From assembly GCF_009914755.1 (NCBI RefSeq), contig NC_060935.1: a stretch of DNA of 64,000 nucleotides; one strand, written 5' to 3'. The notes under the pieces were generated by a model, which saw only the letters and a program-made list of their open reading frames with translations, searched no databases and was not told where the DNA came from. Source of the stretch: the human T2T-CHM13v2.0 reference genome, Homo sapiens. Shown here in pieces: positions 13,660 to 19,735 of the stretch (position 1 is its first letter; each line of letters starts with the position of its first letter). The translations under genes and the position numbers were made by a program.

Positions 13660-14340
13660 CCAAACAGATTTTTTTCAGGGTCAGTACTTCCAAAGACTAT
13701 TTCTGAAGTTGTCCATCACAGCATTATTTTTACAGTCAAAAACTGGAAACTATGAAGTAATGGTTGAGCAAAATAAGGTGTTTATACTTGATGAAACATT
13801 GTACAGCCATTAAACATAAAGTTTATAAAGAATCTAAGCTTAACAGATCTTTGTGTTAAATGAAAACCAAGCAGCAACCACATCATATATAAAATATAAT
13901 CTCAATTATCTTTACAAAATGCAAGGAATGAATATTGGATAAAAATAAGCCAAAATGTTAATTCTAAGATTATGCATATCTCTTCTGCATATTTCTCTGA
14001 ATATTACTGCTTATTTGTGGAAAATTTAGAAAATAAAAGCATACATAATAAAAATTAACTGTAATATGCCACCACTGTTACTAATTTGGTATTTTGCTAT
14101 CCATTATTTAAGAATAAAAATTCATAAATATACTTTGCATATATTGCTTTCAAATTTTAAAACTTCAAAATGGGGAAGAATAAGAAATGTTTAGACATAA
14201 AAAGATAACGCAATGTTAACTGAAAAAGTCAAAATCATATATATGACTAAAAGCATGTTATGTAAAAAGACTTCTCACTACTTTGTACCCTGTCAAATCC
14301 ATGCCATATCATGTACACCTATTTAAAATAAATAAAAGAC
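13660..14340 (+). mobile_element. Old L1ME/MC-type 3' fragments
   Basis: AT-rich; catcacagcattatttttacagtcaaaaactggaaac...tacagccattaaa is typical of an L1M 3' region. Confidence 0.55.
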
Positions 14341-14342
14341 AG

Positions 14343-14662
14343 GGCTGGACACAGTGACTCACGCCTGTAATCTCAGCACTTTGGAAGGCCAAAGTGGCAG
14401 ATTACTTGAGCTCAGGAGTTTGAGACTAGCCTGGGCAACATGGCAAAACCCCATCTGTACCAAAAATACAAAAATTAGCTGGGTGTGGTGGCACACACCC
14501 ATGGTCCCAGCTACTTGGGAGGCTGAGGTGGGAGGATATCTGGAGCCTGGGAAATCGAGGGTGCAGTAAGCCATGGTCATGCCACTGCACTCCAACCTGG
14601 GTGTCAGAGCAGGAAGATCCTGTCTCAAATTTTAAAAATAAATTAATTAAAATAAAATAAAT
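14343..14662 (+). mobile_element. AluJ-type SINE
   Basis: ttacttgagctcaggagtttgag...gaggtgggaggatatctggagcctggg, with an A-rich tail. Confidence 0.9.
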
Positions 14663-15597
14663 GTTATTTCCCCACTCTTCTATAAAATCCAGAAGATACA
14701 TTAAGGTGAAGTGAATATGGCTGCTTTTCCCCTTTGTCTATTATCCCATTTTTTTATGTAATGCAGTTATATGACCTTCATAGTATAAAAGAATTTTTTT
14801 TTAATTCTATACTTTCCTCAAGGTCATGATAACCCAAACTGTATATTAGGCAATTTCTCTTTAAGCAAGCTGAGCCCACAGCCCCTCTCCAAGCTGACTT
14901 CTTTGCAGCAGAGCCCCAGGGAAGAGCAAAATGAGGCCCTCTGGGGTGGAGCCACAGAACCTCAGCCACACACAGTGCCATGGTATTGCTAGAAGGTGAA
15001 AAGCTGGGTAAGAAGGCCTCAGAAATGACTGGAGAGGGAGATCAGTTTGTTTTTCAACTGTCTCTGTATTTCATTCCCTTAAGCATTCTTCCCCAAAGCT
15101 CCCACTCCACCATCCCCTGGAATGGGGGTAATGGATTAGGCGCTGAGTAATCATTAGTCTCACGACCCCATCTGAACTCAAAGCTACAAACACTTTCAAT
15201 ATGAAGTGTTTAATTTATTTAAGACAGGAATCACCTCCACTTTACAGCTGAGGAAGATGAGGCTCTAGAAGGTTAAGTCCAATCAGCCAAAACTCAGGCC
15301 TTAGTCTCTGAAGGCTGTGCTTTCCTTGATAGCAGCCCTCTAGGGCCCTGGAGTGAGGGACAGCTCTTCTCATTCAGGCTCTCGGCACTGCTGAGGGCAG
15401 GTGACAGCCTAACCAGCTGTCACACATCAGGACAGCCCTAGAAGTTCCAGCTGGCCATCTGACAAATAGCAGGACTGTTGTGGGCTGAACTGTGTTCCCT
15501 TCAAAATTAATATTCAAAGTCCTAATCCCAGAACTTCAAAATGTAACTGTGTTTGGAGATTAGATCCTTAAAGAGGTGATCAAGTTAAAATGAGGTA

Positions 15598-15637
15598 GGA
15601 AGGAAGGAAGGAAGGAAGGAAGGAAGGAAGGAAGGAA
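15598..15637 (+). repeat. (GGAA)10 microsatellite between the outer and inner 5' TSDs of the SVA
   Basis: Ten perfect GGAA units read directly. Confidence 0.97.
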
Positions 15638-15654
15638 AGAAAGAAAATTGGAAA

Positions 15655-17415
15655 GGCTCCTCCTCTCCCTCTCCCTCCTCTCCCTCTCCCTCCTCTCCCT
15701 CTCCCTCCTCTCCCTCTCCCTCCTCTCCCTCTCCCTCTCCCTCTCTTTCCACGGTCTCCCCCTGATGCCGAGCCAAAGCTGGACTGTACTGCTGCCATCT
15801 CGGCTCACTGCAACCTCCCTGCCTGATTCTCCTGCCTCAGCCTGCCGAGTGCCTGCGATTGCAGGCACGCGCCGCCATGCCTGACTGGTTTTCGTATTTT
15901 TTTGGTGGAGACGGGGTTTCGCTGTGTTGGCCAGGCTGGTCTCCAGCTCCTAACCGCGAGTGATCTGCCAGCCTCGGCCTCCCGAGGTGCCGGGATGGCA
16001 GACGGAGTCGCGTTCACTCACTCAGTGTTCAGTGGTGCCCAGGCTGGAGTGCAGTGGCGTGATCTCGGCTCGCTACAACCTCCACCTCCCAGCTGCCTGC
16101 CTTGGCCCCCCAAAGTGCCGAGATTGCAGCCTCTGCCCGGCCGCCACCCCGTCTGGGAAGTGAGGAGCGTCTCTGCCTGGCCGCCCATCGTCTGGGATGT
16201 GAGGAGCCTCTCTGCCTGGCTGCCCAGTCTGGAAAGTGAGGAGCATCTCTGCCCGGCCGCCATCCCATCTAGGAAGTGAGGAGCGTCTCTGCCACGCCGC
16301 CCATCGTCTGAGATGTGGGGAGCGCCTCTGCCCTGCCGCCCCGTCTGGGATGTGAGGAGCGTCTCTGCCCGGCCGCCCTGTCTGAGAAGTGAGGAGACCC
16401 TCTGCCTGGCAACCGCCCCGTCTGAGAAGTGAGGAGCCCCTCCGCCCGGCAGCCACTCCGTCTGGGAAGCGAGGAGCGTCTCCGCCCGGCAGCCACCCCG
16501 TCTGGGAGGGAGGTGGGGGTCAGCCCCCCGCCCGGCCAGCCGCCCCGTCCGGAAGGGAGGTGGGGGGGGTTAGCCCCCCGCCCGGCCAGCCGCCCCATCC
16601 GGGAGGGAGGTGGGGGGGTCATCCCCCCACCTGGCCAGCCGCCCCGTCCGGGAAGGATGTGGGGGGGTCAGCCCCCCGCCCGGCCAGCCGCCCCATCCGG
16701 GAGGTGAGGGGCGCCTCTGCCCGGCCGCCCCTACTGGGAAGAGAGGAGCCCCTCTGCCCGGCCAGCCGCCCCATCCGGGAGGGAGGTGGTGGGGTCAGCC
16801 CCCCGCCCGGCCAGCCGCCCCGTCCGGGAGGTGAGGGGCGCCTCTGCCCGGCCGCCCCTACTGGGAAGTGAGGAGCCCCTCTGCCCGGCCACCACCCCGT
16901 CTGGGAGGTGTACTCAACAGCTCATTGAGAACGGGCCATGATGACAATGGCGGTTTTGTGGAATAGAAAGGGGGGAAAGGTGGGGAAAAGATTGAGAAAT
17001 TGGATGGTTGCCATGTCTGTGTAGAAAGAGGTAGACATGGGAGACTTTTCATTTTGTTCTGTACTAAGAAAAATTCTTCTGCCTTGGGATCCTGTTGATC
17101 TGTGACCTTACCCCCAACCCTGTGCTCTCTGAAACATGTGCTGTGTCCACTCAGGGTTAAATGGATTAAGGGTGGTGCAAGATGTGCTTTGTTAAACAGA
17201 TGCTTGAAGGCAGCATGCTCGTTAAGAGTCATCACCACTCCCTAATCTCAAGTACCCAGGGACACAAACACTGCAGAGGGCCGCAGGGTCCTCTGCCTAG
17301 GAAAACCAGAGACCTTTGTTCACTTATCTGCTGACCTTCCCTCCACTACTGTCCTGTGACCCTGCCAAATCCCCCTCTGCGAGAAACACCCAAGAATGAT
17401 CAATAAAAAAAAAAA
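15655..17415 (+). mobile_element. Full-length SVA retrotransposon (probably SVA_D-like)
   Basis: CT-rich hexamer domain (15655-15745), antisense Alu-like domain (~15750-16130), GC-rich VNTR (~16130-16910), SINE-R (~16910-17401), AATAAA at 17402-17407, poly(A); TSD AAAGAAAATTGGAAA at 15640-15654 and 17416-17430. The subfamily call is tentative. Confidence 0.98.
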
Positions 17416-17632
17416 AAAGAAAATTGGAAAAAAAAAAAAAGTTAAAATGAGGTATTTAGAGTGGATCCTCATCCAATATGACTGGTGTTCTCATAAGAGG
17501 GGGAAATTGGACACAGAGATGACTATGTGAGGATACAGTGAGAAGGTGGCAGCCTTCAAGCCAAAGAGAGAAGTCTCAGAAGGAACCAAACCTGCCGACC
17601 CCTTGATCTCAGGTTTCGAGCTCCCAGACTGA

Positions 17633-17944
<312 letters not shown>

Positions 17945-18109
17945 AAGAAAATAAACTTCTATCATTAATGCTACCCAGCCTGTGTTATTTTGTAACGCCA
18001 GCCCTAGCAGACTAACACAGGGACATCAAATGCTTCAAATTTGGCTGGAGAAGAGGAGCAGGCAGGTGGGGTTTACGGTAATCACCTCCACAGAAATCAG
18101 TACAACAGA

Positions 18110-18335
18110 GCTGGAACAAGCCAATTTAGGCTTCATAAATTGGAGGGATTTGAATCTCAGTTCTCCCCCCTACTCTGTGACCTTAACCTGTTTCCTCATT
18201 TACAAAATGGAGAAAATTACAGTACCATCTTTGTAGAGTTTCTGGGTGGATTAAATGATACATGCATTGTGCTGAACACTTCACATGCACTGACGTACAG
18301 TAAGTACTCAGCAGCCAAGTATTAATAACACTAAT
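18110..18335 (+). mobile_element. MIR SINE
   Basis: ctgtgaccttaacctgtttcctcatttacaaaatggagaaaattacagtacc...ggattaaatgataca. Confidence 0.7.
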
Positions 18336-19735
18336 AATTAATATTAGTAGTGATATAGGAGCACATCCTAGCGGGAGAAAATGTGTGACCAAGAGGTGGT
18401 GTTTGAGGTTACTGAGGAACAAAACAAGCTTCAGTTTCTCAGTCTTTCTATGTTCACACAGAAACAGGATCCTCTTAATGTTCATTGCCTTTCCCCTCAA
18501 GATATTCCAAAAATCAGTGACAACCACATCTTGTACTATGTGTATTCTGGTAAAATTCTATCCATAAATTACTGAGCAGAAAGAGACAGTTTCACAGGGC
18601 CTGCATGGCAACATCTGAAGGAAAACAGAAGGCAGCGGTAGTACCCTGGATACAGAGTAGGGCCTGCTCCCCACCACACTCTCCAAGGCAGCAGCCTAGA
18701 CAGGTGCAAATACTGTGCTGAGAGCCTGAGCTCCTGGAGAGCCTGGGCCACACTCTCACTCTGCCCCTGTGACACCTCAGTCATGCTCCCTCTCTGGGCT
18801 CAGTTTCCTCCTCTGCAAACTGAAGCACTGCACTAGCTGAGCTTGGCTGTGCCAAAGAGCCCAAAGACCTTGATACTTAAGTTCATCTGCATCTTTTTGC
18901 AGCCTGATGCTTGCTTCACTGCCCACATTCAGGCCTCATGTATGAATTAACCATGCTCCTCTCTGGGTGCTGGCAATGAGGGAAAATAAAGTGTCATGGT
19001 TTCACTTTTCATAATAGATCTGACAGCCCTTCGGAAACCTCACCATAAAAAGAAACCAGCTGTTGCCAGAGGTAATAACCTAATGGCCAATCTTGCAGAG
19101 ACAATGACCCTAAAGAGATACGGCAATGGCCACCAAGAAGAGGTAGATCAAATTTAAAGTGGGAGAGGGGAAGATTAACTTTATGGGAAGATGACAAGGA
19201 TAATATACTTGGCCAAATACAAGTCTAGAATTGCTGTGCTGAGTTCTGCACTTTTAAATTTGAGAAAATCTCAAGTGCTAGTAATTAGACCTGAATTTTA
19301 TCAGCACCAATTAATATATGAGTAATGTTTTATAAACACTTCCACATCCAAGGTGTCACTTAATTCTCATTCACAACAAACATTTCTTTCTATCATAATC
19401 AGATAAGGAAAGGAGTTCCAGAAAATTAAGCGACTTGCCCAAGATCACACACCTAGAAAGCCCAGGGTGGCAGGCAAATTGCAGATTGGAGTCCAAAGTC
19501 AGTGATCTTTCCAAGCTTATTTATGCCTTCCCTCTGTAAGCCAAAGCAAAGATGAGGAGAGAGCTTATATTCAGTGTGACTTCATTTATGTTTGTAATCC
19601 AGCTTATTAGCGAAGCTGGGAAGAAGCCAGCTCTGCAAATTTTACAAGTCCCCAAACATAAAAATAAATGTCATGGGATACCACTAGGGAACATCCCTGG
19701 AACACGGCTTCCCCCACTAAAGCAACTGGGACAAC

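What the first reader, a model, noticed from the sequence alone, without database searches (positions are those of the whole stretch)
15582..17454. SVA inside two nested pairs of perfect TSDs: probably re-mobilised with both flanks of its source locus
Seen: the order is outer repeat AAGTTAAAATGAGGTA (15582-15597), (GGAA)10, inner repeat AAAGAAAATTGGAAA (15640-15654), complete SVA with AATAAA and poly(A), inner repeat (17416-17430), second A tract (17431-17438), outer repeat (17439-17454). Removing everything between the outer repeats restores a continuous MLT1 LTR. Established: L1-mediated TPRT makes one TSD per event, SVAs can carry 5' and 3' transductions, and cleavage occurs ~10-30 nt after AATAAA. 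Inference: a transcript began upstream of a source SVA elsewhere, in a GGAA tract, read through it and was polyadenylated ~20-23 nt after the SVA AATAAA, just past the source's 3' TSD. The daughter copy would then preserve the parent's TSD pair as a lineage barcode. Alternative: two successive insertions, a tiny (GGAA)/poly(A) retro-insert first and the SVA into it later.
Basis: partly seen in the sequence, partly recalled or inferred. Interest (0 to 1): 0.8.

Follow-up and report, generated by a model that had tools for sequence, protein, structure and literature searches.

The report
SVA copy carrying its parent's flanks
This SVA retrotransposon in a PLEKHA7 intron is a daughter of a source SVA on chromosome 2 and carries short pieces of that source's flanks, including its target-site duplication; this is a tidy example of an effect already in print.

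Summary
Both nested repeat pairs sit at the stated coordinates, each twice in 64 kb, and 0 of 100 shuffles gave two matches.

The T2T genome has a source SVA at chr2:85.489-85.492 Mb. Upstream lies an Alu-type SINE whose tail has become a purine microsatellite ending in (GGAA)n. Its 3' flank runs on without poly(A).

Fourteen other loci carry parts of these flanks, each inside its own exact 13-16-nt TSD. Eight have 5' transductions of 20-141 nt. Six have a ~950-bp 3' transduction or its 3' part, and two of those are orphans without SVA. The chr11 and chr7:55.56 Mb copies have a 12-nt 3' transduction that ends inside the source TSD.

The chr11 and chr7 copies are sisters (support 99/97). They share changes the CHM13 source lacks, so chr11 is either chr7's parent or its sibling from an unsampled intermediate.

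The two-step alternative is refuted. Transduced source TSDs are already described (Kirby 2025), so this is ordinary but well resolved.

The parts
15582..15597 (+). 5' copy of the TSD made by the chr11 insertion (AAGTTAAAATGAGGTA, 16 nt)
   Evidence: exact pair with 17439-17454, and only 2 matches in the window.
15598..15640 (+). 5' transduction, microsatellite part: (GGAA)10 plus AGA, copied from the Alu-tail microsatellite upstream of the chr2 source
   Evidence: the same tract precedes the same junction at chr2:85.49 Mb and in 7 other offspring.
15641..15658 (+). 5' transduction, second part: the source SVA's 5' TSD copy (AAGAAAATTGGAAAGGCT). The whole 5' transduction, 15598-15658, is 61 nt.
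   Evidence: exact 27-nt junction in 9 loci; the same 18-mer (with one A>G) follows the source SVA's tail; 5' transduction length.
15659..17418 (+). SVA body, antisense to PLEKHA7: hexamer-like tract 15659-15745, Alu-like region about 15746-16130, VNTR 16131-16908, SINE-R about 16909-17401, AATAAA 17402-17407, first A run 17405-17418
   Evidence: alignments to 11-12 family copies.
17419..17430 (+). Ultra-short 3' transduction: the first 12 nt (GAAAATTGGAAA) of the source's 3' TSD copy. Cleavage fell 20-23 nt after AATAAA, inside the source TSD.
   Evidence: in chr3, chr5 and chr19 copies the same motif continues GGCT plus about 935 more nt of chr2 flank. The chr7 copy stops at the same point.
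17431..17438 (+). Poly(A) added to the read-through transcript. The boundary with the A-initial TSD is ambiguous by 2 nt.
17439..17454 (+). 3' copy of the chr11 TSD

Best explanation
The SVA at 15598-17438 is an L1-mediated retrotransposed copy that descends from a source SVA at T2T chr2:85.489-85.492 Mb, either directly or through one intermediate.

The source sits just behind an Alu-type SINE. That SINE's A-rich tail has evolved into a purine microsatellite: (GAAA), (GGGAA), (GGGGA), (GGGA), then (GGAA)n. The source SVA is bounded by its own 18-nt TSD, AAGAAAATTGGAAAGGCT.

The RNA that gave the chr11 lineage had its 5' end inside the (GGAA)n tract. It therefore carried 61 nt of upstream flank, including the source's 5' TSD copy. 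It was cleaved and polyadenylated 20-23 nt after the SVA's AATAAA, inside the source's 3' TSD copy, and so carried 12 nt of downstream flank. TPRT into an old interspersed repeat in a PLEKHA7 intron then made the outer 16-nt TSD.

Shown:
- the source locus;
- the shared flanks at 14 other sites, each with its own TSD;
- the sister relation of the chr11 and chr7 copies.

Inferred:
- that the 5' end reflects a transcription start in the microsatellite rather than incomplete reverse transcription;
- whether chr11 is a first-generation daughter.
For: 1. Source locus.
- One search shows Alu-type SINE + microsatellite + 18-mer + SVA + A-tail + 18-mer (one A>G) + unique flank at chr2.
- among 8 loci that share the 3' flank, chr2 is the only one where the sequence continues past the downstream AATAAA and cleavage site. 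The other 7 have poly(A) there, followed by unrelated DNA.
- the 290-nt element upstream matches 24 places in the window at 74-78 %, which marks it as a high-copy SINE.

2. Shared junctions.
- the exact 27-nt 5' junction occurs in 9 loci; reversed control 0.
- the SVA end followed by the 3' motif occurs in 5 loci; control 0.
- a 260-nt unique part of the 3' flank is >=99 % identical at 7 loci, and 93 % at chr13 because of an 18-nt deletion.

3. Independent insertions.
- all 14 offspring have exact TSDs of 13-16 nt.
- The 5' transduction lengths are 20, 21, 29, 61, 91, 118, 130 and 141 nt.

4. Same 3' end in a second copy.
- chr7:55.56 Mb ends ...GAAAATTGGAAA + poly(A) + its own TSD AAGACTCCATACC.

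5. Phylogeny.
- chr11 + chr7 form a clade with support 99/97.
- they share 4 exclusive SINE-R substitutions.
- they share a 4-nt insertion, 2 substitutions and the loss of a CCCCACGG unit.
- chr7 is the best non-self genome hit of the chr11 SINE-R (869 vs 857 bits; 40 of 1815 candidates scored).

6. Empty site.
- the flanks are contiguous in 2 of 3 other copies of the host repeat.

7. Precedent.
- Kirby et al. 2025 (PMC12593883; sections 7, 12 and 23 read) report ultra-short 3' transductions that are the source's TSD. They also report 32 of 217 transduction-carrying SVAs with both 5' and 3' transductions.
Against: - No ape or pangenome sequence could be searched, so the presence or absence of the insertion and its age are untested.
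- The 3' transduction is only 12 A-rich nt. On its own it would be weak; it counts because it matches the source and recurs in the chr7 copy.
- The chr11 copy differs from the CHM13 chr2 element by about 6-8 changes shared with chr7, so direct parentage from the present chr2 allele is not shown.
- The CHM13 source has private states not seen in any offspring: (GGCA)4 and 4 of 885 flank positions. Its AATTAAA instead of AATAAA is shared only with the chr1:7.13 copy.
- AATTAAA in chr1:7.13 conflicts with that copy's lack of the three late chr2/chr4 changes. This implies one homoplasy or a conversion that I did not resolve.
- Nothing here separates a 5' end that is a transcription start from one that is an RT stop.
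Confidence: 0.93

Rival explanations
1. Granddaughter reading. The chr11 copy was made from an unsampled intermediate copy, or from a chr2 haplotype absent from CHM13, rather than from the chr2 element as it stands. That progenitor already carried at least (GGAA)10, the source TSD and the 12-nt 3' piece, together with the changes shared with chr7. The inner repeats would then have been passed on twice.
For: The stem of the chr11+chr7 clade is 0.0069 changes per site, about 6 substitutions in 864 columns, plus a shared 4-nt insertion and a shared loss of one hexamer-region unit. None of these is in chr2 or in the 9 other copies in the tree. Both copies have the same 3' end and the same plain A14-16 tail directly before the motif.
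Against: No third element with these changes appeared among the best 40 of 1815 SINE-R candidates. The data are explained equally well, with one element fewer, if chr11 is a first-generation daughter that aged and then gave rise to chr7. The chr11 root-to-tip length of 0.0116 equals the family's median tip of 0.011.
Confidence: 0.4
2. Two successive insertions at the chr11 site. First a small retro-insert of (GGAA)n, the 15-mer and poly(A) arrived, and later an SVA inserted into it and made the inner TSD locally.
For: The nested geometry alone would allow it.
Against: The same microsatellite/18-mer/SVA junction lies at 8 other loci and the same SVA-end/motif junction at 4 other loci. All have different outer TSDs and flanks. 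One locus, chr2, has both flanks continuing as ordinary genomic DNA. A locally made TSD could not recur elsewhere.
Confidence: 0.01
3. The varied 5' ends in the microsatellite are stops of L1 reverse transcriptase on a longer RNA that began further upstream, for example on G-rich RNA structure, and are not transcription starts in the GGAA/GGGGA tract.
For: The eight 5' ends are scattered over about 120 nt of G-rich repeat, giving lengths of 20-141 nt. Other family members are clearly 5'-truncated, in the VNTR or inside the 3' transduction.
Against: None of the 10 copies that reach the SVA 5' end or beyond extends into the Alu-type SINE directly upstream. Raiz et al. 2011 (PMC3287187, passages) cite work reporting numerous transcription start sites throughout SVA.
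Confidence: 0.35

Closest known systems
SVA insertions with ultra-short 3' transductions that are the source element's TSD (Kirby et al. 2025, Mob DNA, PMC12593883)
   Same: A few nt of non-SVA sequence lie between the SVA poly(A) and a second poly(A), and they match the source's TSD. The source is confirmed by finding its TSD inside the transduced sequence. An SVA with both 5' and 3' transductions is also reported there (32 of 217).
   Different: That study covers 543 non-reference polymorphic insertions. Its supplementary tables hold neither the motif GAAAATTGGAAA, nor cytoband 2p11, nor PLEKHA7 (cells longer than 400 characters are cut). This family is therefore not among its 55 active sources. 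The present family lies in the reference and looks older.
5'-transduction groups of SVA (Damert et al. 2009; Hancks et al. 2009). Neither paper is held here; both are known to me only from recall and from citations in PMC12593883.
   Same: There is a group of SVAs sharing upstream flank from one source, with variable 5' ends, and offspring that may act as sources in their turn.
   Different: The transduced piece here is a simple purine microsatellite from a SINE tail plus a TSD, not an exon or unique sequence. Whether those papers list this group could not be checked.
SVA and L1 3' transduction families and orphan transductions (Xing et al. 2006, not held; Hoyt et al. 2021 bioRxiv, passages read)
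   Same: Read-through of a weak element poly(A) signal to a downstream AATAAA gave about 950 nt of flank in six offspring (two hold only its 3' part). Two of them are orphans truncated inside the transduced flank.
   Different: The chr11 copy used the element's own AATAAA. It carries flank only because cleavage falls 20-23 nt downstream, beyond a short genomic A-tail.

Membership tests
SVA retrotransposon inserted by L1 TPRT | Composite structure: hexamer repeat, Alu-like region, VNTR, SINE-R, AATAAA, poly(A) | tested here: met
   (VNTR 16131-16908; periods 37-49 and multiples); co-linear alignment with 9-11 other SVA copies; the 490-nt SINE-R has 1815 candidate matches in the genome.
SVA retrotransposon inserted by L1 TPRT | Insert bounded by a target-site duplication, with a terminal poly(A) next to the 3' TSD copy | tested here: met
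   Exact 16-nt TSD, with an A run at 17431-17438 directly before it.
SVA retrotransposon inserted by L1 TPRT | Target resembles the L1 endonuclease site (TTTT/AA on the nicked strand; consensus recalled) | tested here: inconclusive
   The top strand reads ...GATC|AAGTTAAAA, so the nicked strand reads AACTT/GA. That is only a loose match.
SVA 5' transduction | Non-SVA sequence lies between the 5' TSD and the SVA 5' end and maps to the upstream flank of another SVA | tested here: met
   61 nt (15598-15658) match the flank upstream of the chr2:85.49 Mb SVA. The same junction occurs in 9 loci.
SVA 3' transduction | Sequence after the element's poly(A), followed by a second poly(A), maps to the downstream flank of the same source | tested here: met
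   12 nt (17419-17430) equal the start of the chr2 3' flank in its earlier A-state, as kept in the chr3, chr5 and chr19 copies, where the flank continues for about 935 more nt. The piece is short, so it rests on this context.
Source/offspring relation | The source's flanks continue as ordinary genomic DNA on both sides, without an enclosing poly(A) or TSD; the source's own TSD lies inside the offspring's transductions | tested here: met
   (chr2 is the only one of 8 without poly(A) at the common 3' end).
Named SVA subfamily (A-F, F1) | Diagnostic positions of the Repbase/Dfam consensus sequences | not testable with these tools
   No repeat library was available. The only comparison possible was with 4 labelled rows of Kirby Table S2. 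The Alu-like region carries three blocks seen in the one E-labelled row and absent from the one D-labelled and two F-labelled rows that show this region. Subfamilies A-C are not represented there.
MLT1 (MaLR LTR) as host repeat | Match to the MLT1 consensus | not testable with these tools
   Both flanks belong to one old repeat with 812 and 855 candidate copies at 72-87 % identity, and they are contiguous in other copies. The family name was not checked.

The most novel reading that the evidence does not exclude
The purine microsatellite that grew out of the SINE tail upstream of the chr2 SVA is the zone where its transcripts start, and it is what made this element a long-lived master. It has at least 14 offspring, whose neutral 3'-flank divergence from the source ranges from 0.15 to 1.6 %. 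Because the microsatellite is copied along as a 5' transduction, daughters inherit a portable start zone. The chr11 copy would then itself have been a source and the chr7:55.56 Mb copy its daughter.
Probability: 0.2. Interest if true: 0.5.

Novelty: new member of a known kind. Interest (0 to 1): 0.25.

Why it matters
The locus shows, fully resolved in one genome, how a parent's TSD can ride along on both sides of an SVA and serve as a lineage mark. That mark ties 14 dispersed insertions to one source and gives a relative order of the source's own mutations. For annotation, it explains why repeat masking extends beyond the SVA here, and why the nested repeats are not evidence of two local events. 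It adds nothing to mechanism beyond what is in print. The open biological point is whether a SINE-tail GGAA/GGGGA microsatellite can supply start sites to an SVA.

Tried and rejected
- Rfam scan of 14000-19000: 0 matches, so no RNA gene is involved.
- Damert 2009, Hancks 2009 and Xing 2006 are not held. Whether this transduction family is already listed there, or in the T2T transduction tables of Hoyt et al. (bioRxiv supplements closed), is unknown.
- A literature search for SVA + PLEKHA7 + retrotransposon gave one irrelevant paper. PMC8149882, on reference SVA polymorphisms, has no chr11 or PLEKHA7 mention in its main text.
- Comparing VNTRs to decide whether chr11 is the parent or the sibling of chr7 was uninformative, because the alignments slip between repeat units.
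- The one position in the 5' transduction that distinguishes chr11 from the other copies (a G>A in the last GGAA unit) lies 1 nt upstream of the chr7 copy's 5' end. It cannot settle parentage.
- A first megablast of the upstream SINE against the window gave nothing. The more sensitive blastn task gave 24 hits.
- The top-40 lists for the two chr11 flanks did not share loci. Continuity was therefore tested on three fetched copies instead.
The 3.2-kb loci already held were enough.
Full report
**Observation**

- outer repeat AAGTTAAAATGAGGTA at 15582-15597;
- (GGAA)10 at 15598-15637;
- inner repeat AAAGAAAATTGGAAA at 15640-15654;
- an SVA with a hexamer-like tract (15659-15745), a VNTR (16131-16908), AATAAA (17402-17407) and a 14-A run;
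- the inner repeat again at 17416-17430;
- a second A run;
- the outer repeat again at 17439-17454.

Each repeat occurs exactly twice in the 64-kb window, even with one mismatch allowed. None of 100 dinucleotide-preserving shuffles gave two matches. Rfam finds nothing in 14000-19000.

**Empty site**

The two chr11 flanks each belong to an old interspersed repeat, with 812 and 855 candidate copies at 72-87 % identity. I fetched three other copies of that repeat. In two of them the 5' flank, with one TSD copy, and the 3' flank align to directly adjacent positions. The third has a deletion there. The name MLT1 could not be tested.

**Finding the source**

The window's assembly can be searched.
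- A 103-nt query across the GGAA / inner-repeat / SVA junction matched five other loci over its full or nearly full length, and three more partially.
- The exact 27-nt junction GAAAATTGGAAAGGCTCCTCCTCTCCC occurs at nine loci, including chr11. The reversed-pattern control gave zero.
- The SVA end followed within 3-33 nt by GAAAATTGGAAA occurs at five loci: chr3, chr5, chr7, chr11 and chr19. The control again gave zero.
- In the chr3, chr5, chr19 and chr4 copies the motif does not stop at GGAAA. It runs on GGCT and then for about 935 more nt, including an antisense SINE.
- A 260-nt unique part of that flank is at least 99 % identical at seven loci. It is 93 % identical at chr13, where the lower value comes from an 18-nt deletion. 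The other rows are old-repeat matches at 69-78 % plus one 61-nt fragment on chr10 (40 of 70 candidates scored).

Only chr2:85.49 Mb has both the long upstream microsatellite and the long downstream flank.
- At the point where seven other loci have poly(A) followed by unrelated DNA, about 20 nt after a downstream AATAAA, the chr2 sequence simply continues.
- Upstream, chr2 has a complete 290-nt SINE that matches 24 places in the window at 74-78 %.
- The SINE's tail runs (GAAA), (GGGAA), (GGGGA), (GGGA), (GGAA)n, (GGCA)4 into AAGAAAATTGGAAAGGCT. Then come the SVA, an A-tail, the same 18-mer with one A>G, and the unique flank.

The source's TSD is therefore 18 nt. A near-copy of the same motif also precedes the SINE, which suggests that the SINE's own TSD overlaps the SVA's target (inference).

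**The family**

I mapped the ends of every copy against chr2 and searched for flanking duplications by script. All 14 non-source loci have their own exact TSD of 13-16 nt.

| Class | Copies |
|---|---|
| 5' transduction only | chr1:7.13, chr1:50.26, chr2:105.7, chr6:108.98, chr20:55.63 |
| 5' transduction plus the ~950-nt 3' transduction | chr4:3.54 |
| Long 3' transduction, 5' end in the hexamer region | chr3:193.29, chr5:150.2, chr13:40.18 |
| Long 3' transduction, 5' end in the VNTR | chr19:45.49 |
| 3' flank only, no SVA (orphans of 684 and 943 nt) | chr8:80.79, chr1:150.77 |
| 5' transduction plus the 12-nt 3' piece | chr11 (this finding), chr7:55.56 |

The eight 5' transductions measure 20, 21, 29, 61, 91, 118, 130 and 141 nt. 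None reaches the SINE.

**Mechanism for the chr11 copy**

The 61 nt at 15598-15658 are the last ten GGAA units and the source's 5' TSD copy. The 12 nt at 17419-17430 are the start of the source's 3' TSD copy. The RNA was cleaved between 17427 and 17430, which is 20-23 nt after the end of AATAAA. That lies inside the source TSD and before its GGCT. Poly(A) and the 16-nt chr11 TSD follow. The SVA is on the + strand and so is antisense to PLEKHA7 (hub annotation).

**Lineage within the family**

- In the SINE-R alignment of 11 copies, chr11 and chr7 alone share four substitutions. Two copies were dropped because a regex anchor failed.
- In the Alu-like and hexamer region of nine copies, chr11 and chr7 alone share a 4-nt insertion, two substitutions and the loss of one CCCCACGG unit.
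- An IQ-TREE tree was built on 864 non-VNTR columns of 12 copies. chr1:50.26 was left out for lack of a SINE-R anchor, and the two orphans were left out because they have no SVA. The tree gives chr11+chr7 support of 99/97 and chr2+chr4 support of 85/83. Everything else is an unresolved star.
- chr7 is also the best non-self match of the chr11 SINE-R in the genome (40 of 1815 candidates scored).
- The chr11+chr7 stem is 0.0069 and the tips are 0.0047 and 0.0012. The chr11 root-to-tip length of 0.0116 equals the family's median tip of 0.011.

Two readings fit. In the first, chr11 is a first-generation daughter that accumulated changes and later produced chr7. In the second, both come from an unsampled intermediate or from a chr2 haplotype not present in CHM13. 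I could not separate them:
- VNTR comparison was uninformative.
- The one informative position in the 5' transduction lies 1 nt outside the chr7 copy.

**History of the source**

- The 3' TSD copy reads ...AAAATTGG in the chr3, chr5, chr19, chr11 and chr7 copies, but ...AAAGTTGG in chr2, chr4 and chr13. The A>G change therefore arose at the source after the first group left.
- chr2 and chr4 share three further changes in the Alu-like region.
- chr2 now has AATTAAA, shared only with chr1:7.13. That copy lacks the chr2/chr4 changes, so one of these characters is homoplastic. This is unresolved.
- In about 885 comparable positions of the 3' flank, offspring differ from the source by 0.15-1.6 %. 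Four of the differences are private to the source.
- Human-chimpanzee divergence is about 1.2 % (a recalled figure, not a tool result). On that scale the family spans from roughly the time of the split to well after it. This is a rough inference without ape data.

**Comparison with what is known**

Kirby et al. 2025 (PMC12593883; abstract, sections 7, 10, 12 and 23, and supplementary file 1 searched) report the following:
- 40 % of 543 polymorphic SVAs carry transductions, and 32 of those 217 carry them at both ends.
- Sources were confirmed by finding their TSDs in the transduced sequence.

That paper's tables do not contain this motif, cytoband 2p11 or PLEKHA7. This source is therefore not among its 55 currently active ones.

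The same paper states that orphan transductions had not been described for SVA before its single case. The two reference orphans found here, on chr8 and chr1, are further examples.

The older catalogues (Xing 2006; Damert 2009; Hancks 2009) are not held, and the T2T transduction tables are in closed supplements. I cannot say whether this family is already listed.

The subfamily could not be assigned. The Alu-like region shares three blocks with the one E-labelled row of Kirby's Table S2 that I saw. It shares none with the one D-labelled and two F-labelled rows that show this region. Subfamilies A-C are not represented there.

**Verdict**

The kind of event is known, and the particular family and its source are resolved here. 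Interest is modest.

The boldest reading still open is that the SINE-tail microsatellite supplies the start sites that made this source productive, and that it travels with its daughters.

Noticed in passing
G000 chr8:80,789,984-80,790,675 (L033 1354-2073) and chr1:150,770,415-150,771,375 (L036 1098-2086): These are two orphan 3' transductions of the chr2 source: 684 and 943 nt of chr2 flank with poly(A) and exact 15- and 16-nt TSDs, but no SVA sequence. Kirby et al. 2025 state that orphan transductions had not been described for SVA before their single case.
   Followed up: partly
G000 chr2:85,488,570-85,489,005 (L024 about 270-705): At the source, a near-copy of the SVA's TSD motif also lies directly 5' of the upstream SINE. 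The SINE's own TSD seems to overlap the SVA target, so the motif stands three times at the locus. The SVA went in at the end of a SINE tail.
   Followed up: partly
G000 chr7:55,561,864-55,561,898 (L028) and chr13 (L040 about 1080-1110): The chr7 and chr13 copies have lost the T of the SVA's AATAAA, leaving a plain A run. The CHM13 source and chr1:7.13 have AATTAAA. The element's poly(A) signal is unstable in this family.
   Followed up: no
G000 chr3:193.29, chr5:150.2 and chr19:45.49 Mb (L030-L032, L037-L039): These three long-3'-transduction copies share three derived states in the transduced flank (alignment columns 65, 248 and 762). This points to an early state of the source or to a secondary source of their own.
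   Followed up: no
G000 chr10:74,543,514-74,543,574: A 61-nt stretch is 100 % identical to part of the chr2 3' flank. It may be a very short fragment of another family member. I did not fetch it.
   Followed up: no
G000 chr10:81,402,359-81,404,649 and chr7:134,305,473-134,307,911: These SVAs have the same unusual 15-nt variant of the hexamer repeat and a SINE-R 98 % identical to the chr11 copy, but they lack the transduced junction. They could be relatives or ancestors of the chr2 source.
   Followed up: no
G000 chr20:55,627,030-55,627,170 (L029): The longest 5' transduction (141 nt) has a duplicated block of the GGGA/GGGGA microsatellite relative to chr2. The transduced microsatellites range from about 10 to 19 GGAA units between copies, so they changed length after or during copying.
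   Followed up: no
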